A DNA stretch of 64,000 bases from Nitrospirae bacterium UBA2233 (GTDB lineage: Bacteria > UBA2233), in contig DDYN01000013.1 of assembly GCA_002347965.1 (NCBI GenBank), positions 18,674-82,673 on the forward strand, written 5' to 3'. The notes below the pieces were generated by a model. That model was given only the letters and a program-made list of their open reading frames with translations, did no database searches and was not told where the DNA came from. The position numbers and the translations under genes are program-made. This document shows positions 42,331-64,000 of the stretch, piece by piece. Numbering within the stretch: the stretch's first letter is position 1; every line of letters begins with the position of its first letter.

Positions 42331-42347
42331 ACGCCTCCTCCTAAGGG

Positions 42348-47256: not shown

Positions 47257-47269
47257 ACCCCTGAGTACC

Positions 47270-52555: not shown

Positions 52556-53473
52556 TTAATGTATGCCAAACGATTCGTAGGCGTTATAGGCTAAGGTTAG
52601 GCAAAGCGCAAGCAGGATAGATGCAACGCCTACGATGGCGTTGAGCGTGTCTGGGGCCGTCATGGCAAGGCGCATGAACACCGTAGCCAGGACGAACCCG
52701 GAGTTTCTAAAGACCACCCTGTACGTTTGGCTGTAACGTAAAGACAGCAAGACGATGAGGATGTCGCTAAAGATCAACACGGTATAAAAAGCCTCGAAAA
52801 ACGGGTAGGTATGCACCCCGGCTACGAGCCTTACCGTTTCATCTACGCAGATAAACACGAAGACCCCGAGCAGAGCCAGGCCGATTAGCTTTTTAGAGTT
52901 TATAAAGTTCTCTAGGTCCCTTGTGTTCGGTATGGTTGTCGTATGTCGTTGGAACCTGTAGAAAAACCCCAGTGCGGTAAACACGAAGAAGGCCCCTAAC
53001 GCATCCATGAACATGGGCATGATGGCGTCTGAAGCCTCCTGCCATCCTATAAAACCGTCGAATACGGTAAGTTCCTCAAACGACCGACGGAGCAGGAACA
53101 AGGAGAACACCTCGAACTGCTTACCTAGCGAGCTGGCGACAGACTTGGACAGGGAGAACACCAAGGCGATGATCTCGAAAAATAAAAGCAGCGTAAAAGC
53201 CGCGTTAACGGCGAAGAATGGGTTTGAGGGCAAATGGAGACCCAACCCTTCGGGGATGAAGCCCTGCCTGTTTAACTCGGCCATGATGAGAATGGCCATG
53301 AAGCCGAGCAAGACCAGAGTGCCGGTTACTCTTTGAGTGCCCCTTTCTTCCCAAAAGGCATTAATCTTGTCGAACAGGTTACGGCTTACATTAAGAATTG
53401 TACCCAAGCCCTCCGCTAACGCCGCTCGTTTCTTCGTTGACCCCTGGCTTAAACCTCTCCGCCCGAGTAGCAA
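52556..53473 (-). CDS. Hypothetical polytopic membrane protein (305 aa)
   Basis: Multiple hydrophobic helices and no recognised motif. It is the last gene downstream of the cytochrome cluster. Confidence 0.45.
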   Translation of the reverse strand: MLLGRRGLSQGSTKKRAALAEGLGTILNVSRNLFDKINAFWEERGTQRVTGTLVLLGFMAILIMAELNRQGFIPEGLGLHLPSNPFFAVNAAFTLLLFFEIIALVFSLSKSVASSLGKQFEVFSLFLLRRSFEELTVFDGFIGWQEASDAIMPMFMDALGAFFVFTALGFFYRFQRHTTTIPNTRDLENFINSKKLIGLALLGVFVFICVDETVRLVAGVHTYPFFEAFYTVLIFSDILIVLLSLRYSQTYRVVFRNSGFVLATVFMRLAMTAPDTLNAIVGVASILLALCLTLAYNAYESFGIH

Positions 53474-53654
53474 TCCCTTAAAATACTCTTGGAAAACTTA
53501 GCTAAATAAGAATACAACAGTTTATTTTACACGTTCTTAGTCGCGGCGGCTAAAAGCCCGATAGAAGCCCTTGGACAAAGGGACAAGAAGAAGCCTAAGG
53601 GGCATTCTTGGGGTACAGCTCCAGGGGCTTTAAGCGTGGCCGCCCTTTTTCTGC

Positions 53655-55040
53655 TCACCTAAAGCTCCTGGAGGCGTCATGGCAAAGGTAGCAATCCTGG
53701 CTGTGCTGTTTTTCTGGGGTTTGGGTGCAACCGCTTTGGAAAACGAGCGGGACCTCCCAGCTCTTTTCGTAAACCTTCGAATGAAGGACTATCCGTCCGT
53801 TTTCCTCCCTTACGTGCGGGAGCGGGTCGTTCCCGTCCGCCACGACGACCCTATCCCCTAGCCTGAGCGCAGGAAACCCCTTTCTGTAGCTCCTTATCAT
53901 CCAGAACGCCTCGTTGGCCCCCGTTTCGAGCGTTCGGAGGTCTGGCGGAGAGGACCTCGTCCCGTGGCAAGTCTTGCAACGTACGCGCTGGAGGCTTGCC
54001 TTGTTCCCCGTAAGATGGCCATCCCCCATCACTTCGGTACGCGTATGGCAATCGATGCACTCAAGCTCCACTTCGCAGCGGGCGAACTGGGCCTGGGGTA
54101 TGTAGTAGGCCTTGAAGCGGTCCGCCTTGGGGTCCGTGATGGAAGCCCTTGGGATGTCGGTCCTGTAGAAAAACTTAAGCCTTAGGGAATGTACCCCTTG
54201 GTTGTGGCAGGCGTTGCAGGCCGTGTAGGGGATGGCCGTCGTCATGCGGTGGTAAGGGGCATGGCCTGTTTCGCCCTTATTGATGGTCCTGTCTTTTCCT
54301 AAATAGCGCCCATCCGGCCTGAAGGGAACATGGCAGGCCGAACAGCCTGAAAGGTGGCGAGCCTTTGGGTTGTTTTGGTCGTAGCCCGAGTGGAGATGGC
54401 AAAACTCAAGGCAGTTTTTGACGAAGCGCGCTTTGAGAGGATGTTCCCAAGCCTTAAAAGGGGCTAGGCCGTTTCCCAATAGAGCCCGTTTTTTAAGCGG
54501 TTCGGGGGCTAGGCCAAAGGGGTCCCTTGTCTCCACGACGCCGAACCTGGCGAGCTCATCGCTTTGCCAACCCAGGGCAAAAGCCGTTTTTGATACTTCC
54601 GAGGCCTTGGTGGCCATGAGCGTCAAGGGAACGCTTATAGATGGGCTCCTTTTTGGGTTGTCCTGCCTTGTATGACAACCCTCAACCCCGCAGGTCTTTT
54701 CCTGGACCCTTAAAGAAGCCGGGTTCCTCTTCCCCAAAAGCCCCCTGTGGGCCCTTGTCTTGGAGAGCGCCAGGGCACTGCCCCCATGGCAGATGACGCA
54801 GCCGAAGGCGCTGATTGGGTGTGCCGGGCTGATCTCTTCGATCCCAGAATGGCATGTTAAACAGCGCTCTGGCTTACCCGTAAGCGTGGGCACGATCGCT
54901 TTTGGCTCGGGGCTAAAGCGCTTCCAAGGCCGCCTTGAATCCCGGATGAAAACAAGAGCGATCGCCGCCCCAAGAAAAACGATGCCAAAGAGGGCCGTAA
55001 GACTCCAGGCATCTTTTGCCCCCCTTCCCAAACCCCTCAA
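53655..55040 (-). CDS. Membrane-anchored multiheme cytochrome c (~9 heme sites)
   Basis: Seven CXXCH motifs plus one CX3CH (CLEFCH) and one CX4CH (CGVEGCH). N-terminal TM anchor. The candidate TTG start overlaps the upstream stop (TTGA). Confidence 0.75.
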   Translation of the reverse strand: MRGLGRGAKDAWSLTALFGIVFLGAAIALVFIRDSRRPWKRFSPEPKAIVPTLTGKPERCLTCHSGIEEISPAHPISAFGCVICHGGSALALSKTRAHRGLLGKRNPASLRVQEKTCGVEGCHTRQDNPKRSPSISVPLTLMATKASEVSKTAFALGWQSDELARFGVVETRDPFGLAPEPLKKRALLGNGLAPFKAWEHPLKARFVKNCLEFCHLHSGYDQNNPKARHLSGCSACHVPFRPDGRYLGKDRTINKGETGHAPYHRMTTAIPYTACNACHNQGVHSLRLKFFYRTDIPRASITDPKADRFKAYYIPQAQFARCEVELECIDCHTRTEVMGDGHLTGNKASLQRVRCKTCHGTRSSPPDLRTLETGANEAFWMIRSYRKGFPALRLGDRVVVADGNDPLPHVREENGRIVLHSKVYEKSWEVPLVFQSGCTQTPEKQHSQDCYLCHDASRSFR

Positions 55041-55399
55041 CTCCAATAAAACCAAACCCTAAAAGCGAGTGTGGCAAGAACCCAAAACGCAACTATTCCT
55101 ATTCCCAGACTTTTTGCGAGCCTATGCTTCTTTGAGGGCAAAAAGGGCAGCACCGAAAGAAGACAAACGGCGAACAACGGCAAAAAAACTCCGGCCAAAA
55201 GCGGGGTGAAGATAAGCAGAAGCCCCTGGATGGCAACGAAGATCCACGGTGCCGGGGCGATTTTTCCCCGTGATGGCTCGACGGTCAAGCCGGAAGCAAT
55301 AAGGGCCGCGGCGAGGGCCAAAAGCCCCAAGGCCAACAACAGCACGGCCCCTTCGCGCCTTAAAAGCTCCTTTCTATCGATAAGCCCCTTCACAGGCAT
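55037..55399 (-). CDS. Cytochrome b C-terminal / subunit-IV-like protein of a Rieske-cytochrome b complex
   Basis: Three TM helices and a P-x-W-[YI]-F motif (PAPWIFVAIQGLL, compare PEWYF). ATG at 55399. Confidence 0.6.
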   Translation of the reverse strand: MPVKGLIDRKELLRREGAVLLLALGLLALAAALIASGLTVEPSRGKIAPAPWIFVAIQGLLLIFTPLLAGVFLPLFAVCLLSVLPFLPSKKHRLAKSLGIGIVAFWVLATLAFRVWFYWS

Positions 55400-56043
55400 C
55401 GGCTCACTCCGCCATCCCGACGCACACGGTAAAAATGCCACGCGCACAACCCAAGCGCAAAAAAGGGCAACACCCCACAATGCAGCGTGTAGAGCCTAAG
55501 CCCAGCACTATAGCCAACAGGATCGGCACCAAAAAGGAGGGTTTGCAAGGTTTTACCCAACAGGGGCACCTCCCCCAAAAGCCCAAACGCCACCCTTGAG
55601 GCATCCATCGCCCTTTCATCGCCGATCAAAAGATAGCCGCTGAAATCAAGGAAGAACGCAAGCAAAAGAAGCCCCATGCCTATGAGCCAGTTGCCCTGCC
55701 TTGGCGGGGCAAAAGCACCCGAGGCCAGCACCCTAATAGTATGGCCAACGATCGCAACGACCATCAGCTGGCCCGATAGAAAATGCAGGCTTCTTATGAA
55801 GGACCCGTAGGCAGCGGCCTCTTCGATCGTAACGACAGAACCCATGGCCTCCTTGGGGGTTCCAGGCCGGTAAAATGGCATCAAAAGAAGCCCCGTAAGG
55901 ACCAACACCAGGAAAAACCCAAAAGACAGCCCCCCTAGACAAAGCGTAGGCCAAAGCCCTGCTACGCCCTTAGGGATCCTGGGCGGGTGAACGTGCGCAA
56001 GGAACCCTAGCGCCCCGTTTCGGCTCGACCCCAAAGCCTTCAC
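55390..56043 (-). CDS. Cytochrome b6-type (N-terminal, 4-TM) subunit
   Basis: His pairs spaced 14 and 15 residues in helices B and D, as in b6. Conserved Cys in LCLGG (the heme ci site in b6f-type complexes). GTGA overlap with the Rieske stop. Confidence 0.8.
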   Translation of the reverse strand: MKALGSSRNGALGFLAHVHPPRIPKGVAGLWPTLCLGGLSFGFFLVLVLTGLLLMPFYRPGTPKEAMGSVVTIEEAAAYGSFIRSLHFLSGQLMVVAIVGHTIRVLASGAFAPPRQGNWLIGMGLLLLAFFLDFSGYLLIGDERAMDASRVAFGLLGEVPLLGKTLQTLLFGADPVGYSAGLRLYTLHCGVLPFFALGLCAWHFYRVRRDGGVSRCL

Positions 56044-56474
56044 AGACGAAACCCAGGGTCCACCTCTGAAGCGAGTAGGGCCCGCAAGCGAGATTCGCTC
56101 ACCTTAATCAGCTTAAGGCGCTTAAGCGGCCTGGGGGCCGGCCCCTTTAGGACCTCTCCTTTTGTGCTGTAGACGCTCCCGTGACACGGGCAAGAAAACG
56201 TGGCGCTGGATGTGTCGAAACGAACAGGACAGCCCAAATGGGTGCAGCGGTTTAAAAGCGCGTAGGAACCCTTTTGGTCGCTCACAACCCAAGCAAACTC
56301 TCGCTGACCAAGGAGCGGCTCCCCGCTGGTTCGAGGGTCTTTAACGAGATCAAAGTCATCAAACTCGGGGCGCTTTCCTTCAGGAAGCGAGCCAAGGTAG
56401 CCCAAAAAGACCCTTAAAAACCCCAATCCGGGCAACACCAAAAGGGTTTTTACGATATTCCGTCTTGCAAACAT
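56040..56474 (-). CDS. Rieske [2Fe-2S] protein
   Basis: CTHLGC...CPCHGS boxes. An RR-containing N-terminal TM/Tat-like segment (FARRNIVKT). ATG at 56474 with a GAAGG RBS. Confidence 0.8.
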   Translation of the reverse strand: MFARRNIVKTLLVLPGLGFLRVFLGYLGSLPEGKRPEFDDFDLVKDPRTSGEPLLGQREFAWVVSDQKGSYALLNRCTHLGCPVRFDTSSATFSCPCHGSVYSTKGEVLKGPAPRPLKRLKLIKVSESRLRALLASEVDPGFRL

Positions 56475-56496
56475 CCGAACCTTCGGGCGTTCAAAC

Positions 56497-56535
56497 AGTT
56501 CCAGCCGGGGTAAAAAACGCCCCCGACTGGAACTG
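56497..56535 (-). other. Intercistronic stem-loop between the triheme cytochrome c and Rieske genes
   Basis: CAGTTCCAG-C-CGGGG-taaaaaacg-CCCCG-A-CTGGAACTG: a 14-bp interrupted stem with no following U-run. Confidence 0.4.
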
Positions 56536-56581
56536 TCGCACAAATAATTCAAGCCCAGAGGACTAACGCCAAGCAAAAACC

Positions 56582-56929
56582 CTACTTTGCCCCGTAGCTG
56601 GCCGCCAGCTGCTGCCAGTCGGTAGGATGGCACGAGCCGCAGTTGAACTGCAAATCGGAGTAAGGGTCTACCATGCCCTGGTGGGCCCTAGCCTCGTCGG
56701 TGGCAAACGGCTGGCCGCCGTGGCAGTAATCGCAGGCATCCAGCTGGGCATGGTCGGTGTGGTACTGGCCCACGTTGGAGATGGGCATTTGCTTTTTGAT
56801 CTCATGACAGCTCTTGCAAGAGCTCACGCTGGACCCACACTGGGCGTTGACATCGCTGTCGGGTAAGCAGCTGAATGTAACGGCGGCCGTCAGCAAGAAA
56901 GCAGGGAAAACATAGGTCGATCGTTTCAT
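56582..56929 (-). CDS. Small periplasmic triheme cytochrome c (115 aa)
   Basis: Signal peptide and three CXXCH motifs (CKSCH, CDYCH, CGSCH). AAGGAGG RBS. ATGA overlap with the upstream stop. Confidence 0.75.
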   Translation of the reverse strand: MKRSTYVFPAFLLTAAVTFSCLPDSDVNAQCGSSVSSCKSCHEIKKQMPISNVGQYHTDHAQLDACDYCHGGQPFATDEARAHQGMVDPYSDLQFNCGSCHPTDWQQLAASYGAK

Positions 56930-57636
56930 GTCGTTTGACCTCCTTTTTTGATGAGTTTTTCATACCAAAGCGGGTGGTGGTGCCTGATGAACTCCAGGTC
57001 CATTTCCCCGTTCCCGAACATCGCCCGGAGCGACTCCCTGTTTATGGGATGAGTGCCCAGGTATACGTGTACGATGAGTGCCAGGGCAGTCAGAAGGAAC
57101 ACTGTGTCGTGAACAAACCTAGAAAACGACCAAATCGCGGGGGAGAAGGAGTCTCTAAACCAAAGGACAAAGCCTGAAAGGGAAAGGAGGAGCATGGCCA
57201 AAATCATAAACCAAGCCAGCGCCTTTTGTCCTATGTTGTACTTTCCGAACCTTGGAGGCTGAAAGAATACATAGCAGCGGATAAGCTCCCTAACCCCATC
57301 CCATGCGCCAGAAAGCGAGTACCTTTCGGGCCAGATGTGCCACTCGCGCACGTGCATGAGCTGCCCCAAGCTAAAGGGGATCGCGGTGAGGAAGAACAAA
57401 AGGGCCGCTACCCTGTGCAGGACCCTTGCTGTCTGAACACCTCCGGCGACGATCGCCTCGTAGGGCTGCTGCTGACCGAAGAAGCTCACTGGAACACCGA
57501 ACACGTAGGCGATCCAATCAAAGGCATGGCTTAAGATAGGCAAGCCAGATAGTATAAAAAGCACCATGAAATGGATAATGTGCTTATGAAACCAGATTTG
57601 TAGCGTGTTAAACGCCTGAACCCTGCTAGTCTCCAT
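56926..57636 (-). CDS. Membrane di-heme cytochrome b subunit (FdnI / PhsC / Ni-Fe hydrogenase cytochrome b family)
   Basis: 4-5 TM helices with His in TM1 and TM2 and an H-x13-H pair in TM4. Confidence 0.75.
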   Translation of the reverse strand: METSRVQAFNTLQIWFHKHIIHFMVLFILSGLPILSHAFDWIAYVFGVPVSFFGQQQPYEAIVAGGVQTARVLHRVAALLFFLTAIPFSLGQLMHVREWHIWPERYSLSGAWDGVRELIRCYVFFQPPRFGKYNIGQKALAWFMILAMLLLSLSGFVLWFRDSFSPAIWSFSRFVHDTVFLLTALALIVHVYLGTHPINRESLRAMFGNGEMDLEFIRHHHPLWYEKLIKKGGQTT

Positions 57637-58534
57637 CGGTTTCTTCCTGCCTGTTTTCTTCCTTGGCTTGTCCTGAAGTCGTTCCTTGATCCGTCCCTTC
57701 GCCAGCTTCGGCCCCTTGTTCCAAGACGTTACGCCCTTCTTGGTCCCGCGCTACTTCCAGCTTGCGGTTGTAAAGCCAGTAAAGAAAGTGGCCTGTGCAC
57801 GCAAGGGCCGTTAAGCCGGCAAGGCCAGCGCCCCCAACCTTAAGCGGGCCTCTCATGATTGCGGCCGATTTTACCGGGTCTTGTGGCAGCCCGTAGGCCT
57901 CCAAGTCGGCTTCCGGGACAATCGTGAGCCAGCCCGTACGGCCCACATAACCGTTTAACCTTTGAGCCCCGTACACAACGTAGGGCTCACCGTAGCGCTC
58001 AGTGTAAAAACTGGCGCGCTCGTTTGCCTCCTTGAGCACCTCATCCTCCGGCCCCGAGAACATGGCGCCCGTAGGACAAGCCTCGACGCAGGCCGGGACC
58101 AAACCGTTCTCAATTCTGTCAAAGCACAGGATGCACTTATAGGTCTTGTTGGTTTCGGGGTTGTATACGGGCACGTCGTAGGGGCAGGCATCTATGCAAG
58201 ACCTGCAGCCTACGCAGCGCTCCTCTAATATCACTACGGCCCCAGACGGCCTTTTGACTATGGCGAAGGCGGGGCAGATGTCAAGGCACGGGTGGTTTTC
58301 GCAGTGCATGCAATGATGGAACTCGATGATCTGCCTGGCCTTTGGAAAGACGCCAAACTCCTTCAATCGAGGCATCAGGTAATTAAGGTGATGCATAGGG
58401 TGGTTTGCCGTTTGCTCGGACGGAATATGCTGATCCCTCTGAAGGCGAACTCTGTTCTCTACGGAGCAGTTCGTCATGCAAGAAAAACACCTTACGCAGC
58501 TGTGTGTGTCGTAACAGTTTAGGTATCTTTTCAT
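57626..58534 (-). CDS. 4x[4Fe-4S] ferredoxin-type electron-transfer subunit with a C-terminal TM anchor (FdnH-like)
   Basis: Four CxxCxxCxxxCP clusters plus a C-terminal hydrophobic helix. Confidence 0.85.
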   Translation of the reverse strand: MKRYLNCYDTHSCVRCFSCMTNCSVENRVRLQRDQHIPSEQTANHPMHHLNYLMPRLKEFGVFPKARQIIEFHHCMHCENHPCLDICPAFAIVKRPSGAVVILEERCVGCRSCIDACPYDVPVYNPETNKTYKCILCFDRIENGLVPACVEACPTGAMFSGPEDEVLKEANERASFYTERYGEPYVVYGAQRLNGYVGRTGWLTIVPEADLEAYGLPQDPVKSAAIMRGPLKVGGAGLAGLTALACTGHFLYWLYNRKLEVARDQEGRNVLEQGAEAGEGTDQGTTSGQAKEENRQEETDGD

Positions 58535-61068
58535 GACAGTTTCTCGATTTTAACGATGAAGTCTTGTGAAGGATGCCCGGCCGTTATGGGAATAAAATCC
58601 AAACTGTTAACGTGGTTTGGGTTGCAGCCCTCTTTGGAAACGATGGTGAGATATTGCCTGCATGCCATACAAGCCCCGGTCGTCATACTGTAGTAGGTAA
58701 GGAGGGCATCGGGGTGTATTAACTCGCTCACTCTAACGACAGAGCTGTAGCACTTCTTGTTTGGGTCGAGAGCGTTTGTTATCCTAACCTTATCACCGTC
58801 GCTAAGGCCCAGCTCTTTCGCCTTTAGCGGGTTTATCATCACTGAAGAGCCTCCCATGATGTCGGCGAATTCCTTAATTATGGCGTTATTCCGAGTTTGT
58901 GCCCCCGTAAACGTGGCCAGGGGAAAGAACGCGCTTATGGGAACAAACTCCCCCTTTTCTAGCTTCGGCTTGAGCCCCATGTATCTAGGCGGGGTCCAGG
59001 TTGGCAGCGGAGAGGCGTGGAATGCGTAAGGATAACCCTTGTTTTTCAGCTTTTCGTGGGTTTCGGCAAGAAGAAGGCTGTATACCTCCAGCTTTCCTGT
59101 AGGCGTTCCCATCGCTTGGGGAAGGTAGAACTTTTTAGACCCCGCCCATGCCCCCTGCTCCAACAGAATGTCCAAGGGGGGTATTGTTTTTCTTTCACTT
59201 TCGGTAACACCGCGTATTCCTGCATACTGTTTTTCCCACACGGCCTTGATGCCCCGCTCTTCGAACTCCGAGTAGTGCTGAGCGTACTCTTCTTCGGTCA
59301 GGACCCTCTTGGCCAGTTGATTGAAGATCCAGTATCCGTCCTTTGATTCGAAAAGGGGTTCGACAGCCTTCCTGTTGACACCTATCGTCGGTATGGGAGC
59401 CTTAAACTTGGTGCTTAGAGCCTCGTCTCGCTCTAGGTACGTCGCATCCGGCAGGACGATGTCGGCGTTCATCACCGTTTCGTCAAAATAAGGGGAAATA
59501 ACGACGATCAGCTCGAGCTTATTTAAAGCTTTGGCGATATCCCAGCTGCCGGCAGACCCCCCTACGACGTTTTGTCCGTGGATAACGGCCACCTTGGAGC
59601 GGTATGGCTTATCCTCCAGAAGAGAGCGGGCGTAAGTCCTTCGCCCCTCGACGGGGTTCGATAGAATCCAGCCGGGCTCGTTCTCGATGTAGTAGTCTAG
59701 AATAGACTGTCCGCTTGGCTTGGGTGCGTGGATAAAATGCCCCAAGCCGCAAGGGTGCTGCCAGAATAACCCCCCCTCCCTGCCGAAGGCGCCTAGGAGC
59801 AGGTTTATCGTAGCCATGGTGAGTTTCTCACGCAGCGAGCTGAAGTAACGCTCCGAGCGGTACCCCCTATCTAAGACTACCCTTGGTTTATAGCGGTTAA
59901 GGTTTTCTGCTAGCTCGATGACCTTAGCGGCCGGCACCGTGCTGATACTTTCCGCCCATTCGGGTGTAAACTGCTTAGCGTTGTCGGCTAGCATCTGAAG
60001 ACCGGTCTTGCAAGCCGTTTCTTTACCGTCAATAAGCTCCTTAAAGCTTCCGAACAACGCCGGGTCTTTGGCCTTAGATTTGAACGTTACGCTCCTTGTG
60101 GCCTTGTCAAAAACTAGGTAATCGAGGGCCTTACCGTTTTGCCTAGTCCCTACGGGCAAGAGGGTGTTTGCATCAATCAGGATGTCGGCGTTCGTGTAAT
60201 CGCGCAGGTATTCTTCATCGTAAAACTTTCTATCCATGATAACGTTTAGGATGCCAAGGAGGAGGGCGGCATCGCTTCCGGGCCTGATCGGGACCCACTC
60301 GGCATCGCCGCCGGCTTCAGCCGGCCTTCTAGGGTCGATCACGACAACCCTCATCCCGTTTCGTTTGGCCCTTCCAAAAGACACCCCCCAAGAGTAGGTT
60401 ACTATCGCACCCCCGGGGTTCCTGCCCATCAAAATAGCGTATTCGGAGTTCTCGTAATCCGGCTGGATGGCCCCAGGACCAAGGATTGGAATGCCCGATG
60501 CCTTAGGCCCTCCCATATGGGCGGCAAAACCAAGGCTCGTTGCCCCGGCCCAGCAGGTGTCTCCGTAGCTGATAAAATAATTGGGGGTGCCGTAGATCTC
60601 GAAGAACTCCTCATCCAGCTCAGGGCCCGAGTGGAACCTCGGCAAATAGGCTACGCTATGCGCCTCGCCCTCATCCCTTAACTCTTTTAGCTTAAGGGCG
60701 ATCTTGTCCAAGGCCTCTTCCCAAGAGACTCTTCGAAACCGCCCCTCTCCCCTTTTCCCTTCCCTGACAAGCGGATACTTGACCCTGTCCGGGCTGTAGA
60801 GCGCCCCTACGGCCGCCCGCGAGCGGCCGCAGACGCCCGGGTAGGGCGTGTGCTTGTTGGATTCAACCCTTACCAGCCTTCCATCCCTCACGACGCCGAC
60901 CGCGGGGCAGAACTGATCGCACATTCTGCACATCAAAGGAATGCGCCTTTCGAGCCCAAAGTCTGTTGCGGATACATCGGCCCTTGCCGGCTCGAAGCTT
61001 ACTGCTTGGCCGCCCAACAGCCCTAAGGCGGATACCTTGAAAAAGGAGCGTCTGTCTATACGAACCAT
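58531..61068 (-). CDS. Tat-exported molybdopterin (Mo/W-bisPGD, DMSO reductase family) oxidoreductase catalytic subunit
   Basis: Twin-arginine signal RRSFFKVSALGLLGG. N-terminal CxxCxxxC...C FeS motif. 845 aa with no in-frame stop. ATG at 61068. Confidence 0.85.
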   Translation of the reverse strand: MVRIDRRSFFKVSALGLLGGQAVSFEPARADVSATDFGLERRIPLMCRMCDQFCPAVGVVRDGRLVRVESNKHTPYPGVCGRSRAAVGALYSPDRVKYPLVREGKRGEGRFRRVSWEEALDKIALKLKELRDEGEAHSVAYLPRFHSGPELDEEFFEIYGTPNYFISYGDTCWAGATSLGFAAHMGGPKASGIPILGPGAIQPDYENSEYAILMGRNPGGAIVTYSWGVSFGRAKRNGMRVVVIDPRRPAEAGGDAEWVPIRPGSDAALLLGILNVIMDRKFYDEEYLRDYTNADILIDANTLLPVGTRQNGKALDYLVFDKATRSVTFKSKAKDPALFGSFKELIDGKETACKTGLQMLADNAKQFTPEWAESISTVPAAKVIELAENLNRYKPRVVLDRGYRSERYFSSLREKLTMATINLLLGAFGREGGLFWQHPCGLGHFIHAPKPSGQSILDYYIENEPGWILSNPVEGRRTYARSLLEDKPYRSKVAVIHGQNVVGGSAGSWDIAKALNKLELIVVISPYFDETVMNADIVLPDATYLERDEALSTKFKAPIPTIGVNRKAVEPLFESKDGYWIFNQLAKRVLTEEEYAQHYSEFEERGIKAVWEKQYAGIRGVTESERKTIPPLDILLEQGAWAGSKKFYLPQAMGTPTGKLEVYSLLLAETHEKLKNKGYPYAFHASPLPTWTPPRYMGLKPKLEKGEFVPISAFFPLATFTGAQTRNNAIIKEFADIMGGSSVMINPLKAKELGLSDGDKVRITNALDPNKKCYSSVVRVSELIHPDALLTYYSMTTGACMACRQYLTIVSKEGCNPNHVNSLDFIPITAGHPSQDFIVKIEKLS

Positions 61069-61109
61069 CGAATAAAGCCTACCTGTTTGTTTTTGTTGTT
61101 GGTTAACTA

Positions 61110-62405
61110 TCAATAAACCACGGGGAACCCGGCGGCCGTCCAGTTGGTCGTCCCGCCGATTAAGTCGTACACCTGCGTAAATCCCTTCTCGATGGCCATC
61201 ATCGCGGCCTGCGCCCCCCTTGGCCCGTTGGCACACACAAAGCAGATCGGGGCGTTCTTGTCGAGCTCGCCGGAATCCAAAAACTGCTCAACGTCCTCAC
61301 CGAGCTCGTGGAACTGGATCTTGGCAATATGCATCCCGTTATACTCGAGCGCACTGCGTACGTCCACCACGGTTAGGTTCGGACCCTCTCGCCACTTCTC
61401 GTACAGCTGGCTTGCGATCCAGGAGTGCATGTACTTGCCCTGCATCCATCCGTAATTGGCGTAGTCGAGCATGGCGTTGACCGTGCCTATTAACGTGGGC
61501 CCGAAGTTTGGCGCCTCGACCCAGTTTTCAGACCCGGGCTGCTCCATACCTATAGCCCGGTTGATGCCGGCGGCCCTTCCTTGGACGCCAAGGAACGTGT
61601 TCAGCGTTTGCTCGGCAAGAGCTTGGTCTTTGGTGTTGACGATTTTTGCGGATTTTTTGAAGACAAGGTCCGGATAGGCATCGGCTAGGCTAGGAGCGCT
61701 TTGGTAGCCGAAGGCGTCCTCTGACTGGGCCACAACCTGGCCTTTTTGGTAGACAACCGGCGCTTGACCCTTTGTCACATCAACGCCCTGCAAAGACAAG
61801 GGCATGCCGGCCCCGATCCATTCTCCGAGTCCGCTATTCAGGTAGTAAACGTTGTCGTAACCATACGTAACCGTATGGTAGCCCGCTGTAAGGGCTCGGA
61901 TCCCTCAAGCACAGATGAGAATCTCTGGCTCGTTAGGGTCGAGCCTGCCCGATTTCACGAACTCATCGTACTCATCGAGCGGGACGTTGATCGAGCCCGG
62001 GATGTGCACGCCGTCGAACTCGGCCTTCGAGCGGATGTCCACGATCTGGACCTCTTGGCTTGACATCATCCTGCGCATCTGGGCCGCCGTTATCGGGTTT
62101 GCCGTTACCCCTTCAAGCTTTAACTCCAACGGCGCTATGGACGCCTCCATAAAATAGCGCATCTGGCCCAGCAAGAGCATGAAGAACGCGCCCACGTCGG
62201 TCGTGGCGATCTGGTTGGGCGTGAAGGAGAACATGTTGCCAGCTAGCGGTATGAACATATCGACCATCGGCTGGGTCAAGCCCCGGATTATCAGGTCGTT
62301 CCTCGTTACCTCGTGGGCGCTTGCTTTGGTCGCACCCATAAGCGGGGCTGCGCTAAAGATAAGCGGCAGGCCTAGGGCCAGCGCCTTGAACCATCGCTTT
62401 CGCAT
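61110..62405 (-). CDS. Periplasmic tandem-rhodanese-domain sulfurtransferase, read as a single frame through an in-frame TGA (candidate selenoprotein, or a pseudogene)
   Basis: Signal peptide and AAGGAGGAG RBS. Domain 1 active-site loop reads I-C-A-[TGA]-G-I-R. The conserved rhodanese sequence continues in frame for 33 codons to the next ORF, whose domain 2 loop is C-A-N-G-P-R. Confidence 0.55.
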
Positions 62406-62434
62406 GGCTCCTCCTTATTTTGGTTGATTCTTTC

Positions 62435-62566
62435 CTACACCAGGCTTGTCAGCGAGGTGCTGGTAGCCGGAAAAGAGTTCGACAAAAGATGCACAAAGGC
62501 ATTCAGAAAGGCATTTAAGAGCTCGCTTAAGAGCCCAGGATCGATCGGGGCAGGCTGGAATCCCAT
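62435..62566 (-). CDS. Putative sORF (43 aa)
   Basis: TAAGGAGG RBS 7 nt before the ATG. Too short for the ORF track. Paralogous to the adjacent sORF. Confidence 0.3.
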   Translation of the reverse strand: MGFQPAPIDPGLLSELLNAFLNAFVHLLSNSFPATSTSLTSLV

Positions 62567-62582
62567 AGAAAACCTCCTTATT

Positions 62583-62720
62583 TCAGCCCATTAAACTAGT
62601 AATCGGGCTCGTCAAAAACCCAGAGAGCTGATCGCTCACACCAAGAAGCCCGGGCAAGCTCGGGGCCAGGTTGTTGACGAAGAACTCGTAGACCGTGTTC
62701 AGGAACTCTTCCGGTGTCAC
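62583..62720 (-). CDS. Putative sORF (45 aa, GTG start)
   Basis: A GGATGGAGGAG stretch precedes the GTG. Shares an A-P-x-x-P-G-L-L ... T-S-x-x-T-S-L motif with the downstream sORF. Confidence 0.25.
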   Translation of the reverse strand: MTPEEFLNTVYEFFVNNLAPSLPGLLGVSDQLSGFLTSPITSLMG

Positions 62721-62801
62721 TGCTCCTCCATCCTTTCTTTAGTGACATACATTATGTATTATGTGCTATATGTCAAGATTATTATATACTACATACTGTA
62801 T

Positions 62802-62818
62802 GTCAATAGTCTATTGAC
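62802..62818. promoter_or_regulatory. 17-bp perfect palindrome GTCAATAG-T-CTATTGAC in an AT-rich divergent control region
   Basis: Direct sequence reading. Additional TATGTCAA direct repeats occur at about 62769 and 62799. Confidence 0.35.
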
Positions 62819-62964
62819 ACTCTAAGCATTATGATGTTAGAAATTCTTAAATATCGCCGCTTAGCAAGGGGGTTGCGAGTTGGGAGCCGATGCTGTTTAG
62901 TACTATATCTCTAATCTACTAAAAGATGACTACGCAAATTAGCACAAAGGAGGAGTTGGTGGGG

Positions 62965-64000
62965 ATGAGGCGCGGTCTTTTAAGGTTGATATCTTGTTTC
63001 ATTGCTGCCGTATTGGCGTTGGTTGGCCTTGCTATCTACTCTAAAAGCTTCAGCTATGGCGACCCCGAGTTCTTGGCCCTGGAAAAACAGCTCCAAAGCC
63101 CCCTTGTAGACGCGTTAACCCTTAGATCATGGGTCGAGAATGAGAATAAACACCCCTTCGGCTATCCCGTTGTCGTGGTAGACACCTCTTCGGCTGGCTA
63201 CAACGAAGGGCATATACCCGGCGCTGTCGGCATTTCCTGGGTAGAGTTCTCGGAGTTCAGGAGCGATGGCCCGGCGTTTTTAGACCCCATGGTGGCGAGC
63301 GGGAGTCATGTAGATGATCTGCTTAAGCGCATGGGGGTACGCAGTAAAGAGACCATCGTCGTCTTCACGTCAAACGACCCTTCCGTGGGTTACGACATGG
63401 CCCGGGCCTTCTGGACGTTTTACTACTGGGGCTTTGCCCCCAGGTACATCAAGGTTCTAGACGGGGGGAACGAGGCCTGGGCTAAGGCAGGCTTTGAGCT
63501 GGCTAAAGAGCCTTTCAGCCCATCGCCAGGGGTTCTTTCCGTACGAAACGTCAACGAGCCCGGCCAGATGGAAGGGGCCAGGAAGTCCATCGGGGATATG
63601 CTAAGGCTCGTAGACGACGGCAAGACCCTGGACGGCTCCGTTCAGGTCCTTGCCGTACTACCCCCGAATACGCCCTTACCAGGCTCTAGAGAGCGGATCA
63701 CGTTAAACGAATTCGGCGCCCTTTACGCCTACTTCAGCGGAAAGATCGAGGGTGCAAGGCAACTCATGTTCGGTTGGGATGCGCTCTTTAAGCCAGACGG
63801 TACGTTCAAGACAAAAGAGGAGCTCCTGGGTCTTTTCTTGGGGCTTGGGCTCGACCCAAACAAGCCTACGATCACCTACTGCAACAGGGGGAATGTGGCA
63901 AGCCTGTATTGGTTCGCGCTTAAGTTCATCGCTGGATTCAAGGATGTGGCCGTTTACGACGGCTCGTGGAGTGAGTGGGGAAAGCTGCTTGCCTACGAGC
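62965..64000 (+). CDS. Two-domain rhodanese (thiosulfate/3-mercaptopyruvate sulfurtransferase-like) with an N-terminal signal/anchor; 3' end lies beyond the window
   Basis: AAGGAGGAG RBS. The ATG at 62965 (or the GTG 6 nt upstream) is followed by a hydrophobic segment. The catalytic loop YCNRGNVAS sits in the second domain. No stop codon before the window end. Confidence 0.8.
   Translation, partial: MRRGLLRLISCFIAAVLALVGLAIYSKSFSYGDPEFLALEKQLQSPLVDALTLRSWVENENKHPFGYPVVVVDTSSAGYNEGHIPGAVGISWVEFSEFRSDGPAFLDPMVASGSHVDDLLKRMGVRSKETIVVFTSNDPSVGYDMARAFWTFYYWGFAPRYIKVLDGGNEAWAKAGFELAKEPFSPSPGVLSVRNVNEPGQMEGARKSIGDMLRLVDDGKTLDGSVQVLAVLPPNTPLPGSRERITLNEFGALYAYFSGKIEGARQLMFGWDALFKPDGTFKTKEELLGLFLGLGLDPNKPTITYCNRGNVASLYWFALKFIAGFKDVAVYDGSWSEWGKLLAYE

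What the first reader, a model, noticed from the sequence alone, without database searches (positions are those of the whole stretch)
53655..62405. Single ~9 kb operon joining rhodanese, an FdnGHI-like molybdoenzyme, a Rieske/b6/subunit-IV complex and multiheme cytochromes
All ten genes are on the minus strand with little or no intergenic space; several junctions overlap by 4 nt (ATGA at the cytochrome b / triheme c junction, GTGA at Rieske / b6, TTGA at subunit IV / multiheme), which suggests transcription as one unit. In order the genes are: periplasmic tandem rhodanese; Tat-exported Mo-bisPGD catalytic subunit; 4-cluster FeS subunit with a TM anchor; di-heme cytochrome b membrane subunit; triheme cytochrome c; Rieske protein; cytochrome b6-type subunit carrying the conserved heme-ci Cys (LCLGG); subunit-IV-like protein with a PxW[YI]F motif; and a ~9-heme membrane-anchored cytochrome. 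Putting a complete quinone-reactive molybdoenzyme in the same operon as a complete b6f-like quinol:cytochrome c module is unusual. With rhodaneses on both flanks it suggests a dedicated sulfur-compound (thiosulfate, polysulfide or tetrathionate-type) respiratory or oxidation pathway. The substrate cannot be assigned from sequence alone.
Basis: partly seen in the sequence, partly recalled or inferred. Interest (0 to 1): 0.85.

Follow-up and report, generated by a model that had tools for sequence, protein, structure and literature searches.

The report
Sulfur-type molybdoenzyme wired to b6-like complex
A Nitrospirota bacterium carries one compact operon joining a selenocysteine-containing sulfur-carrier protein, a molybdenum enzyme related to polysulfide and thiosulfate reductases, and its own cytochrome b6-type quinol oxidase with multi-haem cytochromes; similar pairings are common in uncultured bacteria, but I found no description of them in the literature I searched.

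Summary
It holds nine minus-strand genes (53655-62405). Two conserved small ORFs lie upstream, so the unit extends to about 62720.

- The "tandem rhodanese" is a single gene interrupted by an in-frame TGA inside a C-A-U active-site loop. Sister strains carry TGC (Cys) at that codon, so this is a Sec/Cys protein.
- The second rhodanese is a divergent ExtH homologue. It heads an ExtHIJ-MNOPQS-like cluster that lacks the polysulfide reductase MccSep (ExtKL).

The catalytic subunit is not a formate dehydrogenase. It belongs to a monophyletic clade, ligated through Cys, that is a deep sister to the Psr/Phs reductases. Its beta and gamma subunits are FdnH/FdnI-like.

The Rieske/b6/subunit IV/9-haem module is of the Geobacter ExtOPQ/ExtM type and is not the organism's only bc complex.

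Pairing a Psr/Phs-family enzyme with this module is not rare. Of 22 metagenome loci with enough flank, 20 carry such an enzyme, although from a different clade. In one close relative the Mo enzyme is replaced by a split-Soret-like protein.

The most likely function is a dedicated periplasmic sulfane-sulfur (or selenium) respiratory module. Neither the direction of electron flow nor the substrate is resolved. I rate it a new variant of a known kind, of moderate to high interest.

The parts
62778..62806 (-). Sigma-70-like promoter candidate (TTGACA-17-AATAAT) in the AT-rich 520-nt divergent intergenic region
   Evidence: One search gave an 11 of 12 match. It is a consensus match only and is not conserved in sequence among strains.
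62583..62720 (-). Small ORF 1 (45 aa, GTG start, GGAGG ribosome-binding site)
   Evidence: It is conserved at protein level in L083, L089, L090 and L093, with many nucleotide differences in L083. Function unknown.
62435..62566 (-). Small ORF 2 (43 aa, ATG start, GGAGG ribosome-binding site)
   Evidence: It is conserved in L083, L089, L090 and L093 (90% identity in L093). Function unknown.
61110..62405 (-). Periplasmic tandem rhodanese (431 aa, signal peptide). Domain 1 has the active-site loop I-C-A-U-G-I-R, with Sec encoded by TGA at 61905-61907. Domain 2 has the loop V-C-A-N-G-P-R.
   Evidence: TGA is found in the window, L083, L089 and L093, and TGC in L088 and L090. The CxU rhodanese is a catalogued predicted selenoprotein type (PMC9312934).
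61860..61879 (-). SECIS-like hairpin ACCAUACG-GUUA-CGUAUGGU, starting 28 nt after the first base of the UGA
   Evidence: The fold is -22.7 kcal/mol with z = -2.87. The 60 nt from the TGA onward are the most conserved stretch of the gene: 0.97-0.98 identity against 0.83-0.85 gene-wide.
58531..61068 (-). Catalytic Mo/W-bisPGD subunit (845 aa). It has a Tat signal, FS0 cysteines C47/C50/C54/C80, and the predicted metal ligand Cys172.
57626..58534 (-). FdnH-like subunit with four [4Fe-4S] clusters and a C-terminal TM helix
   Evidence: The best NCBIfam match is FDH-beta at 138.6 bits, below the cut-off.
56926..57636 (-). FdnI-like di-haem cytochrome b (four His ligands, GKYNIGQK quinone loop)
56582..56929 (-). 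Triheme c7-like cytochrome c (115 aa, signal peptide)
   Evidence: Homologous domains occur in the Anaerolineae-type clusters.
56495..56536 (-). Conserved intercistronic RNA hairpin between the triheme c and Rieske genes
   Evidence: Five pairs show compensatory changes among 5 sequences. A 2-nt indel in the loop argues against this stretch being coding.
56040..56474 (-). Rieske [2Fe-2S] protein (144 aa, MFARRN Tat-type anchor, CTHLGC and CPCHGSVY boxes)
55390..56043 (-). Cytochrome b6-type subunit (217 aa, four His, Cys35 for haem ci)
   Evidence: It scores 193 bits on the ExtP model.
55037..55399 (-). Subunit IV-like membrane protein (120 aa, P-A-P-W-I-F in place of PEWY)
53655..55040 (-). 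Nine-haem cytochrome c with an N-terminal TM anchor, ExtM-like
   Evidence: One family member is fused to cytochrome b (P0261).
62926..64000 (+). 5' part of a divergent ExtH-like tandem rhodanese. It is the first gene of an ExtH-I-J-M-N-Rieske-P-Q-S-like cluster that runs off the window.

Best explanation
This is a dedicated periplasmic respiratory operon for a chalcogen substrate in a Nitrospirota bacterium. The substrate is most likely sulfane sulfur (polysulfide derived from S0, or thiosulfate). The operon is built from three modules.

1. A secreted tandem rhodanese. Its first catalytic loop carries Cys and selenocysteine two residues apart (C-A-U). I infer that it binds the sulfur species as a persulfide or selenosulfide and hands it on.

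2. A Tat-exported, Cys-ligated Mo/W-bisPGD enzyme from a deep sister lineage of the polysulfide/thiosulfate reductases. It is the redox catalyst. It is tied to the menaquinone pool through an FdnH-type four-cluster subunit and an FdnI-type di-haem cytochrome b, whose quinone site faces the cytoplasm.

3. An ExtOPQ/ExtM-type Rieske/b6/subunit IV complex with a 9-haem membrane cytochrome and a triheme c7-like cytochrome. This is a private menaquinol:cytochrome c oxidoreductase for the same pathway.

I favour the reductive direction, with the substrate acting as electron acceptor. In that case the FdnI-type anchor would let the membrane potential push electrons outward onto a low-potential acceptor, as in Salmonella Phs. 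The b6 branch would feed the c-type cytochromes and the rhodanese-bound intermediate.

What is shown: the gene content, cofactor-binding residues, Sec/Cys alternation, clade membership, conserved synteny, and the recurrent pairing of Psr/Phs-type enzymes with this b6 module.

What is inferred: the substrate, the direction of electron flow, any physical coupling between modules, and transcription as one unit.
For: - The catalytic subunit's best solved relative is Thermus PsrA (205 bits; the next best is 136). Its invariant Cys172 aligns with the PsrA residue I count as Cys173, the Mo ligand as I recall it.
- In an NJ tree the clade is monophyletic (100% bootstrap). Together with four orphan sequences it is sister to a 48-member Psr/Phs-like group. 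FdnG, NapA and DmsA lie further out.
- The Deferribacter autotrophicus orthologue was independently placed as a deep lineage of the Psr branch (PMC6896113).
- Rhodaneses lie next to clade members in three different cluster architectures.
- The divergent neighbour is an ExtH/ExtI/ExtJ/ExtM/ExtN/ExtS cluster (ExtI 479, ExtM 840, ExtN 462 and ExtS 171 bits, all above their cut-offs). It lacks ExtKL. ExtKL (MccSep) is the experimentally shown polysulfide reductase of Geobacter S0 respiration (PMC13510729). The Mo enzyme plus Sec-rhodanese could fill that role here.
- The b6 subunit and the multihaem cytochrome match the ExtP and ExtM models best.
- The coupling is recurrent. 20 of 22 metagenome loci pair a non-orthologous PhsA-like enzyme (630 bits on the PhsA model) and YeeE/YedE-type sulfur transporters with the same b6/subunit IV/multihaem/Rieske genes.
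- The FdnI quinone-site residues are conserved.
- The Sec/Cys alternation and the conserved hairpin support selenocysteine.
Against: - No member of this Mo-enzyme clade has been characterised.
- The subunit scores only 278 bits on the PhsA model, whose cut-off is 694. Genuine DmsA/YnfE proteins score 246-263 on the same model, so the Psr/Phs affinity is weak. It rests on the PDB ranking and an NJ topology with no bootstrap support at the deep node.
- Clade members also occur in organisms not known to reduce S0 (Deferribacter thermophilus, Mucispirillum) and in sulfur oxidisers (Sulfurimonas).
- The Rieske protein has the Ser and Tyr of high-potential Rieske proteins. Its closest solved relatives have Em above +300 mV. 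This makes delivery of electrons through that branch to polysulfide (about -260 mV) or thiosulfate (about -400 mV) hard to explain.
- An enzyme with its own quinone-reactive anchor does not obviously need a second quinol oxidase.
- In L093 and L095 the same operon lacks the Mo enzyme altogether.
Confidence: 0.42

Rival explanations
1. Oxidative chain. The Mo enzyme is a periplasmic dehydrogenase that oxidises a low-potential sulfur donor (sulfide, polysulfide or sulfite-type) and reduces menaquinone at the cytoplasmic face, forming an Fdn-N-type redox loop. The Rieske/b6 complex then re-oxidises the menaquinol by a Q-cycle and passes electrons through the 9-haem and triheme cytochromes to a higher-potential acceptor. 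On this reading the operon encodes a complete donor-to-acceptor chain with two coupling sites. It could be one arm of sulfur disproportionation.
For: - The FdnH/FdnI-type beta and gamma subunits, with the conserved N-side quinone site, are in nearly all known cases part of quinone-reducing dehydrogenases (established knowledge of Fdn-N).
- The Rieske boxes are of the high-potential type, and the closest solved relatives have Em above +300 mV.
- Every step is thermodynamically downhill.
- It explains why a quinone-reducing and a quinol-oxidising complex would be kept in one operon in 20 of 22 loci.
- Clade members occur in Sulfurimonas/Campylobacterota and in the disproportionator Thermosulfurimonas.
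- Molybdopterin enzymes and rhodaneses have been proposed for disproportionation (PMC9676032).
Against: - All characterised enzymes of the sister Psr/Phs group are reductases.
- D. autotrophicus carries an orthologue and is reported unable to oxidise sulfide.
- The only experimentally anchored relative of the context, Geobacter ext/MccSep, is reductive.
- No high-potential terminal acceptor enzyme is encoded in the operon.
Confidence: 0.3
2. Selenium or another higher-potential chalcogen or oxyanion is the substrate. The operon would be a selenite/tellurite (or tetrathionate) respiratory reductase system. The Rieske/b6 complex would deliver electrons electrogenically to a periplasmic reductase, and the Sec-rhodanese would handle selenium.
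For: - The NCBIfam Ext models are named for selenite/tellurite reduction. ExtI is implicated in selenite and tellurite reduction in Geobacter (PMC5877670), and MccSep oxidises viologen with selenite.
- By textbook values, selenite/Se0 (about +0.2 V) and tetrathionate/thiosulfate (about +0.17-0.2 V) are compatible with a Rieske-dependent route.
- Campylobacter Qcr has been shown to drive the periplasmic Mo reductases Nap and Tor (PMC6195509).
- YedE-type proteins in the sister clusters also match a selenium-metabolism family.
Against: - The TtrA and ArrA models score far below their cut-offs (92 and 122 bits).
- There is no direct link between this Mo clade and selenium.
- Selenium is scarce as a respiratory substrate, yet these clusters are very widespread.
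- An enzyme with an N-side quinone anchor is not needed for a high-potential acceptor.
Confidence: 0.15
3. Ordinary adjacency. A formate dehydrogenase-N-type enzyme happens to lie next to the organism's housekeeping bc complex, with no functional connection.
For: - The beta and gamma subunits match FDH-beta and FDH-gamma best.
- JGI annotates the alpha subunit as an "anaerobic selenocysteine-containing dehydrogenase".
Against: - The alpha subunit is 25% identical to E. coli FdnG, with Cys-Trp at the ligand position. My recollection is that FdnG has Sec-His there; I did not inspect that pair in an alignment. The FDH models score 85-157 bits against cut-offs of 666-814.
- A second Rieske/b complex lies within 10 kb.
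- Five junctions overlap and the synteny is conserved.
- Non-orthologous Psr/Phs enzymes pair independently with the same b6 module in 20 of 22 loci.
Confidence: 0.03

Closest known systems
Geobacter sulfurreducens extHIJKLMNOPQS cluster with MccSep (ExtKL) polysulfide reductase (PMC5877670; PMC13510729)
   Same: - Same logic: a rhodanese, a catalytic chalcogen reductase, multihaem cytochromes and a Rieske/b6/membrane-subunit complex in one cluster.
- The window's b6 and 9-haem proteins hit ExtP and ExtM as their best NCBIfam models.
- A true ExtH-I-J-M-N-P-Q-S set is the divergent neighbour.
- Selenocysteine paired with a nearby Cys is used in the sulfur-handling protein.
   Different: - There is no MccSep. 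The catalytic slot is taken by a three-subunit molybdoenzyme with its own quinone anchor.
- The Sec sits in a rhodanese, not in a haem protein.
- The ExtP, ExtM and ExtQ equivalog cut-offs are not reached (193 against 290, 163 against 800, no hit).
- The gene order differs, and there is a 9-haem protein in place of the 12- and 10-haem cytochromes.
Thermus thermophilus PsrABC and Salmonella PhsABC (polysulfide and thiosulfate reductases)
   Same: - The alpha subunit is Tat-exported and has an FS0 cluster.
- Its invariant Cys aligns with the PsrA Cys that I take to be the Mo ligand.
- PsrA is the best PDB hit and PhsA the best NCBIfam hit.
- There is a four-cluster beta subunit.
- A haem-b anchor as in Phs (from established knowledge) would allow pmf-assisted reduction.
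   Different: - Identity is only about 26-34%.
- The PhsA model score of 278 is far below the 694 cut-off and no better than what DmsA-type proteins score.
- The beta subunit has a TM helix, and the gamma subunit is FdnI-like rather than the NrfD-type PsrC.
E. coli formate dehydrogenase-N (FdnGHI, PDB 1KQF)
   Same: - The overall A-B(TM)-C architecture is the same.
- The gamma subunit keeps all four haem His ligands and the GKYNxGQK loop, which I recall to be the menaquinone site.
   Different: - The alpha subunit is not an FDH: 25% identity, with Cys-Trp at the ligand position rather than the Sec-His pair recalled for FdnG.
- All three FDH models score below their cut-offs.
Rieske/cytochrome b genes inside periplasmic Mo-reductase clusters: Caldithrix abyssi Nap/epsilon-Hao locus (PMC5317091), and Campylobacter Qcr feeding Nap/Tor (PMC6195509)
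   Same: A dedicated or shared Rieske/cytochrome b complex is proposed (Caldithrix) or shown (Campylobacter) to connect menaquinol to periplasmic bis-PGD reductases through multihaem cytochromes.
   Different: - Those reductases (NapA, TorA) lack their own di-haem b anchor and act on high-potential N- and S-oxides.
- Here the enzyme is Psr/Phs-like and has an independent quinone module.
Deferribacter autotrophicus FHQ18_08590-08600 "PsrABC" (PMC6896113)
   Same: [quoted passage not shown]
   Different: In Deferribacter it stands alone: no rhodanese, triheme cytochrome, Rieske/b6 or multihaem genes.
Anammox Rieske/cytochrome b complexes (Kuenenia Kuste4569, Kustd1480; PMC12954380)
   Same: - They are the closest solved Rieske domains (59 and 57 bits).
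- They are Rieske/b complexes with multihaem partners and extra catalytic modules, and electron bifurcation from menaquinol has been proposed for them.
   Different: The partner modules differ (NAD(P)-linked or HAO-like). There is no molybdoenzyme or rhodanese.

Membership tests
Psr/Phs polysulfide/thiosulfate reductase catalytic subunit | Tat signal, N-terminal [4Fe-4S] FS0 motif, and Cys as the Mo/W ligand | tested here: met
   RRSFFK signal. C47, C50, C54, C80 and C172 are invariant in 30 clade members. C172 aligns with the PsrA residue I count as Cys173, the Mo ligand as I recall it.
Psr/Phs polysulfide/thiosulfate reductase catalytic subunit | Sequence membership (NCBIfam PhsA equivalog NF012032, cut-off 694 bits) | tested here: not met
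   278 bits. True DmsA/YnfE proteins score 246-263, and Phs/Psr-like proteins score 427-630.
Psr/Phs polysulfide/thiosulfate reductase catalytic subunit | Phylogenetic placement inside the clade | tested here: inconclusive
   In the NJ tree the clade has 100% bootstrap support. It lies outside, but sister to, the 48-member Psr/Phs-like group. The deep node was not bootstrapped and no Ttr, Arr or Srr references were available. The literature places an orthologue as a deep Psr lineage.
Psr/Phs polysulfide/thiosulfate reductase catalytic subunit | Polysulfide or thiosulfate reductase activity | not testable with these tools
   Needs enzyme assays.
Formate dehydrogenase-N (FdnGHI) | Alpha subunit with a Sec/Cys-His active-site pair and an FDH-alpha model score above cut-off | tested here: not met
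   The ligand context is D-T-C-W/F with no His. TIGR01553 scores 85 against 814, and TIGR01591 scores 157 against 666. FdnG lies distant in the tree. The FdnG Sec-His pair is recalled, not inspected in an alignment here.
Formate dehydrogenase-N (FdnGHI) | Gamma subunit: four His haem ligands and the N-side menaquinone loop | tested here: met
   H17, H74 and two TM4 His align with FdnI H18, H57, H155 and H169. GKYNIGQK aligns with GKYNAGQK. The model score of 79.9 is below the 115.85 cut-off.
Cytochrome b6f-type Rieske/cytochrome b complex | Split cytochrome b (b6 plus subunit IV), four His ligands, and Cys35 for haem ci | tested here: met
   alignment to 6rqf and 7r0w b6; subunit IV.
Cytochrome b6f-type Rieske/cytochrome b complex | PEWY Qo motif in subunit IV | tested here: not met
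   A-P-W-I aligns with P-E-W-Y. The family consensus is APW[IVF], and only the Trp is invariant.
Cytochrome b6f-type Rieske/cytochrome b complex | Cytochrome f and small Pet subunits | tested here: not met
   None is encoded. A 9-haem and a triheme cytochrome c are present instead.
Geobacter Ext (ExtM/ExtO/ExtP/ExtQ) quinol oxidase module | Equivalog-level match to the ExtP, ExtM and ExtQ models | tested here: not met
   ExtP 193 against 290, ExtM 163 against 800, no ExtQ hit. These are nevertheless the best-scoring named families.
Geobacter Ext (ExtM/ExtO/ExtP/ExtQ) quinol oxidase module | Cluster contains the Sec multihaem polysulfide reductase ExtKL (MccSep) | tested here: not met
   The operon, the rest of the window and the adjacent Ext-like cluster contain no ExtKL-like gene. 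The rest of the genome was not examined.
CxU rhodanese selenoprotein (COG0607 form 2; NCBIfam NF041203 'LYCAU') | In-frame UGA in a C-x-U active-site loop, with Cys-containing orthologues at the same position | tested here: met
   L-I-C-A-U-G-I-R. TGA occurs in four lineages or strains and TGC in two.
CxU rhodanese selenoprotein (COG0607 form 2; NCBIfam NF041203 'LYCAU') | SECIS hairpin downstream of the UGA | tested here: met
   A predicted 8-bp hairpin with a GUUA loop, in the most conserved nucleotide stretch of the gene. It is a prediction only.
CxU rhodanese selenoprotein (COG0607 form 2; NCBIfam NF041203 'LYCAU') | Model score above the cut-off (115 bits) | tested here: not met
   66.7 bits with U replaced by C. 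The two-domain protein has no close relatives outside this lineage.
CxU rhodanese selenoprotein (COG0607 form 2; NCBIfam NF041203 'LYCAU') | Actual selenocysteine insertion | not testable with these tools
   Needs 75Se labelling or mass spectrometry. No sel genes or tRNA-Sec lie in the window.

The most novel reading that the evidence does not exclude
The invariant core of this system is the Sec/Cys rhodanese together with the triheme cytochrome and the Rieske/b6/9-haem complex. These persist, with the two small ORFs, in relatives that lack the molybdoenzyme (L093). On this reading:
- The C-A-U rhodanese is itself a redox catalyst. It cleaves sulfane S-S bonds through a Cys-S-(S)-Se-Sec intermediate that is reduced by c-type haems, a non-haem analogue of MccSep chemistry.
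- The Rieske/b6 complex, whose Rieske centre is of the high-potential type, bifurcates menaquinol electrons. The low-potential electron reaches polysulfide or thiosulfate through an interchangeable catalytic cartridge: the Mo enzyme, a split-Soret-like protein, or a PhsA-like enzyme.

The broader class, a Psr/Phs-type enzyme hard-wired to a b6-type complex, would then be an unrecognised and widespread energy-coupling device for low-potential sulfur respiration or disproportionation.
Probability: 0.15. Interest if true: 0.88.

Novelty: new variant of a known kind. Interest (0 to 1): 0.62.

Why it matters
How anaerobes move electrons from menaquinol (about -75 mV) to elemental sulfur, polysulfide or thiosulfate is poorly understood, as is how sulfur disproportionators split electrons between oxidation and reduction. 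The first essential S0-respiration enzyme of Geobacter, MccSep, was described only in 2026, and the role of the Rieske/b complex encoded beside it is unknown.

This locus is a natural variant of that system. In it, a Psr/Phs-related molybdoenzyme and a selenocysteine rhodanese could fill the MccSep role.

The same type of b6 complex is paired with Psr/Phs-type enzymes in most environmental loci that could be checked. That points to an obligate and so far undescribed partnership between two quinone-reactive complexes.

It also supplies concrete material for experiments:
- natural Sec and Cys variants of the rhodanese;
- natural versions of the operon with and without the Mo enzyme;
- cultivated organisms that carry the orthologous Mo enzyme (Deferribacter, Mucispirillum, Thermosulfurimonas).

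Tried and rejected
- **Rfam scan of 53000-64000** at E up to 1 found nothing. There is no Moco or other riboswitch in the 520-nt leader.
- **Sigma-54 promoter search.** Matches were no more frequent than chance and none was convincing upstream of the operon, even though NtrC-type regulators flank several related clusters.
- **Terminator scan.** No excess over shuffled sequence. The conserved c3/Rieske hairpin lacks a proper U-tract.
- **Equating the Mo enzyme with the MOLY cluster** proposed for sulfur disproportionation in Thermosulfurimonas F29 (PMC9676032). It could not be established. The F29 member of this clade sits in an A-B-cytochrome b cluster without a TorD-type chaperone, and by rough gene-count arithmetic it lies elsewhere in the genome.
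- **Type-2 multihaem cytochrome.** I tested whether the 650-aa cytochrome next to the soluble A-B members of the clade is ExtM-like. It is not.
It returned mostly distant Psr/Dms-like loci and only four clade members.
- **Homologue search with the full rhodanese** found no relatives beyond this narrow lineage, so it gave no functional lead.
- **Remainder of the window.** I looked for MccSep or other multihaem genes and for sulfur-metabolism genes, and found only housekeeping genes.
- **Direction of electron flow.** I tried to infer it from the Rieske box residues, the anchor type and the taxon distribution. The indications conflict, so I left the question open.
- **Formate dehydrogenase, arsenate reductase and tetrathionate reductase membership.** Rejected on model scores.

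Full report
**1. What is in the sequence**

The interval 53655-62405 holds nine minus-strand genes. In order of transcription they are:

- a signal-peptide tandem rhodanese (61110-62405);
- an 845-aa Tat-exported Mo/W-bisPGD catalytic subunit (58531-61068);
- a four-cluster ferredoxin subunit with a C-terminal TM helix (57626-58534);
- a di-haem cytochrome b of the Ni_hydr_CYTB/FdnI family (56926-57636);
- a triheme c7-like cytochrome (56582-56929);
- a Rieske protein (56040-56474);
- a cytochrome b6 (55390-56043);
- a subunit IV-like protein (55037-55399);
- a TM-anchored cytochrome with nine haem motifs (53655-55040).

There is a further ATGA overlap at alpha/beta and two overlaps of 10-11 nt. 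The only sizeable gaps are 41 nt (rhodanese to alpha) and 107 nt (triheme c to Rieske). Terminator-like sites are no more frequent than in shuffled sequence. Base composition matches the rest of the window, which otherwise encodes housekeeping functions.

Clusters of the window's RuvB and phosphoglucomutase at 90% identity carry the name Nitrospirota bacterium.

**2.

*(a) The rhodanese carries a selenocysteine codon.* The rhodanese is one reading frame interrupted by TGA at 61905-61907, inside the first active-site loop, L-I-C-A-U-G-I-R.

- The same TGA is present in a relative whose proteins are 63-84% identical (L083), in L089 and in L093. Two strains 98% identical in the Mo enzyme have TGC (Cys) at exactly that codon.
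- A hairpin, ACCAUACG-GUUA-CGUAUGGU, starts 28 nt after the first base of the UGA.
- The 60 nt from the TGA onward are the best-conserved nucleotides of the gene: 0.97-0.98 identity against 0.83-0.85 overall.
- C-x-U rhodaneses are a catalogued predicted selenoprotein type.

This is therefore very probably a Sec/Cys protein. Outside this narrow lineage the two-domain protein has no close relatives.

*(b) Two small ORFs precede the rhodanese.* They are 45 and 43 aa, each with a GGAGG ribosome-binding site, and are conserved at protein level in all relatives.

*(c) The triheme c/Rieske gap contains a conserved RNA hairpin.* The stem is 17-19 bp, and five pairs show compensatory changes among five sequences. 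A 2-nt loop indel excludes coding. It could be an mRNA-stability or processing element separating the two halves of the operon.

*(d) The second rhodanese heads a neighbouring Ext-like cluster.* It lies at 62926 onward on the + strand and is an ExtH homologue. In contigs with the identical or 98%-identical Mo enzyme, it heads a cluster of ExtH, ExtI, ExtJ, ExtM, ExtN, Rieske, ExtP, ExtQ and ExtS. ExtI, ExtJ, ExtM, ExtN and ExtS score above their curated cut-offs. There is no ExtKL. The organism therefore has at least two Rieske/b complexes within 20 kb.

**3. The molybdoenzyme**

- The alpha subunit defines its own clade. About 67 clusters in the 5.8-billion-protein collection are 40-99% identical to it, and identity then drops sharply to 30% or less.
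- Named members come from Deferribacter autotrophicus and D. thermophilus, Mucispirillum, Thermosulfurimonas sp. F29, Thermodesulfatator and Sulfurimonas/Campylobacterota.
- The four FS0 cysteines and Cys172 are invariant.
- The best solved relative is Thermus PsrA (205 bits; the next, perchlorate reductase, scores 136). Cys172 aligns with the PsrA residue I count as Cys173, which I recall to be the Mo ligand.
- The residue after the ligand is Trp or Phe, not the His recalled for formate dehydrogenases.

The best NCBIfam hit is PhsA, but at 278 bits against a cut-off of 694. Calibration shows that genuine DmsA/YnfE proteins score 246-263 on that model and real Psr/Phs-like proteins score 427-630. 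The HMM evidence for Psr/Phs affinity is therefore weak.

I built a neighbour-joining tree from 130 sequences and 661 columns, with E. coli FdnG, NapA and NarG as references. The clade has 100% bootstrap support. Together with four orphan sequences it is sister to a 48-member group that contains all the Phs/Psr-like proteins. FdnG, NapA and DmsA/YnfE branch further out. [quoted passage not shown]

The beta and gamma subunits are closest to FdnH and FdnI. The gamma subunit keeps all four haem His ligands and the GKYNxGQK loop, which I recall forms the cytoplasmic-side menaquinone site in Fdn-N.

**4. The b6-type module**

- The b6 subunit keeps His86, His100, His187, His202 and Cys35, the covalent haem-ci ligand.
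- The Rieske protein has the CTHLGC and CPCHGSVY boxes. Its closest solved relatives are the Kuenenia Rieske proteins, which have Em above +300 mV.
- Subunit IV has A-P-W-I where PEWY would be.
- The b6 and 9-haem proteins match the Geobacter ExtP and ExtM models best, but below their equivalog cut-offs.
- The 9-haem family is large, with more than 795 hits in Anaerolineae, Clostridia and other groups. One member is fused to cytochrome b.

**5. Comparative context, the most informative result**

The Mo-enzyme clade occurs in three architectures:

| Type | Gene content | Where seen |
|---|---|---|
| i | A-B(TM)-cytochrome b alone | Deferribacter, Thermosulfurimonas, Mucispirillum, Thermodesulfatator |
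| ii | 650-aa multihaem cytochrome, PPIase, rhodanese(s), chaperone, A, soluble B | L087 and the P0017 contig (L091 is partial) |
| iii | The window type | The window lineage and L083 only |

Starting from the 9-haem cytochrome gave two further patterns.

- In L093 and L095 (72% identity) the order is small ORF, small ORF, Sec-rhodanese, a 268-aa C_GCAxxG_C_C/split-Soret-cytochrome-like protein, triheme c, Rieske, b6, subunit IV, 9-haem. This is the same operon without the molybdoenzyme.
- In L094 (49% identity) the order is two YeeE/YedE-type Sulf_transp proteins, a PhsA-like A subunit (630 bits on the PhsA model), B, NrfD, Rieske, b6, subunit IV, 9-haem.

I then scanned the metagenome collection with the 9-haem family. 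Of 22 loci with at least 6.5 kb upstream of that gene, 20 carry a PhsA-like gene (18 co-oriented, 2 divergent). The typical order is c3-like, Sulf_transp twice, A, B, NrfD or cytochrome b, b6 (plus subunit IV), multihaem, Rieske. One example is headed by an ArsR-family regulator.

Pairing a Psr/Phs-family enzyme with this b6 module is therefore the rule for the family, and it involves non-orthologous Mo enzymes and two kinds of membrane anchor. This argues strongly for a functional partnership. It also removes the claim that the combination is unusual in itself.

I found no description of this cluster class in the searchable literature. The nearest published cases are:

- the Geobacter ext cluster;
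- Rieske/b genes inside the Caldithrix nap locus;
- Campylobacter Qcr feeding Nap and Tor.

**6. Mechanism**

Established from sequence:

- All redox-cofactor ligands are present.
- The catalytic subunit and the rhodanese are periplasmic.
- There are two independent quinone-reactive modules: an N-side site in the FdnI-like subunit, and Qo/Qi sites in the b6 complex.

Inferred: the substrate is a chalcogen, most probably sulfane sulfur. The grounds are the Sec-rhodanese, the Ext neighbourhood, the recurrence of rhodaneses or YeeE-type transporters beside related enzymes, and the Psr/Phs sister relationship.

In Geobacter the equivalent cluster contains MccSep, shown experimentally to be the polysulfide reductase essential for S0 respiration. 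Here MccSep is missing from the adjacent Ext-like cluster, and the Mo enzyme with its Sec-rhodanese could take its place.

I therefore favour a reductive system (confidence about 0.4). The FdnI-type anchor would allow pmf-assisted reduction of a low-potential acceptor, as proposed for Salmonella Phs (established knowledge).

The main rival (about 0.3) is an oxidative chain: a sulfur donor reduces menaquinone through an Fdn-type redox loop, and the Rieske/b6 complex then passes the electrons to multihaem cytochromes. This rival explains three things better: the high-potential-type Rieske protein, the dehydrogenase-type anchor, and the constant co-occurrence of a quinone reducer with a quinol oxidiser. 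It could also represent one arm of sulfur disproportionation.

A selenite, tellurite or tetrathionate system (about 0.15) is compatible with the Rieske energetics and with the Ext literature. Mere adjacency of an FDH and a housekeeping bc complex is effectively excluded.

**7. Novelty and verdict**

Each module belongs to a known kind, and dedicated Rieske/b complexes attached to periplasmic reductases are known. What is new:

- the joining of this particular uncharacterised Mo-enzyme clade, with an FdnHI-type anchor, to an Ext-type b6 complex;
- a Sec/Cys C-A-U tandem rhodanese as a constant partner;
- natural variants that swap or delete the catalytic cartridge;
- the recognition that Psr/Phs-type enzymes are paired with this b6 module in most environmental loci that could be checked.

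I class it as a new variant of a known kind. The reasons for the lower figure are that the combination is not rare, the sulfur assignment remains contextual, and the direction of electron flow is unresolved.

Noticed in passing
window 62583-62720 and 62435-62566 (minus strand): Two small ORFs (45 and 43 aa), each with a GGAGG ribosome-binding site, lie directly upstream of the Sec-rhodanese. They are conserved at protein level in L083, L089, L090 and L093, including relatives that lack the Ext cluster or the Mo enzyme. The two resemble each other weakly (LLxxxxxFxNxxxxxL). Function unknown.
   Followed up: partly
window 56495-56536 (minus strand): A conserved 17-19 bp GC-rich hairpin lies in the 107-nt gap between the triheme cytochrome and Rieske genes. 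Five of its pairs show compensatory changes across window, L083, L089, L093 and L095. A small hairpin overlapping the Rieske Shine-Dalgarno sequence follows it. It may be an mRNA-stability or processing element, or an attenuator.
   Followed up: partly
L094, L096, L100, L103, L104, L119, L125, L128-L130, L135-L137, L142, L145, L148, L150, L158-L162, L164: A widespread metagenomic gene cluster of Anaerolineae and other groups. Its order is (ArsR), c3-like protein, two YeeE/YedE-type Sulf_transp proteins, PhsA-like A, B, NrfD or cytochrome b anchor, b6 (sometimes fused to subunit IV), 9-haem cytochrome, Rieske, FmdE-like protein. I found no description of it in the searchable literature.
   Followed up: partly
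L093 5996-6802 and L095 172-975: In the closest relatives of the 9-haem cytochrome outside the window lineage, the three Mo-enzyme genes are replaced by a single 268-aa C_GCAxxG_C_C protein. It resembles split-Soret cytochrome c (138 bits, below the cut-off).
   Followed up: partly
L088/L090/L178, upstream of the operon; window 62926 to beyond 64000: The divergent Ext-like cluster (ExtH-I-J-M-N-Rieske-P-Q-S) lacks ExtKL/MccSep. In one strain, 98% identical in the Mo enzyme (L089, a 171-kb contig), the whole Ext-like cluster is absent from this position, and aldo-keto reductase and PP2C genes lie there instead. L093 shows the same arrangement.
   Followed up: partly
window 62730-62830 (minus strand): The AT-rich leader contains repeated TTGACATA / TATGTCA elements, including the palindrome ACATAC-A-GTATGT. 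These look like operator sites, but they are not conserved in sequence in L083 or L090.
   Followed up: no
window 52556-53473 (minus strand): A 305-aa multi-pass membrane protein with no Pfam or NCBIfam match lies 180 nt downstream of the 9-haem gene. It is present in L088, L089, L090 and L178 but absent after the operon in L093. It may or may not belong to the unit.
   Followed up: no
window 45901-49378 (minus strand): A HAMP histidine kinase and an NtrC-type sigma-54 response regulator lie 4-8 kb downstream. Similar two-component pairs directly flank Mo-enzyme clade members in L002, L087 and the P0017 contig, but no convincing sigma-54 promoter was found upstream of the operon.
   Followed up: partly
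window 40231-43895 (minus strand): Two large adjacent ORFs (699 and 515 aa) have no Pfam match and are conserved only in this lineage's contigs.
   Followed up: no
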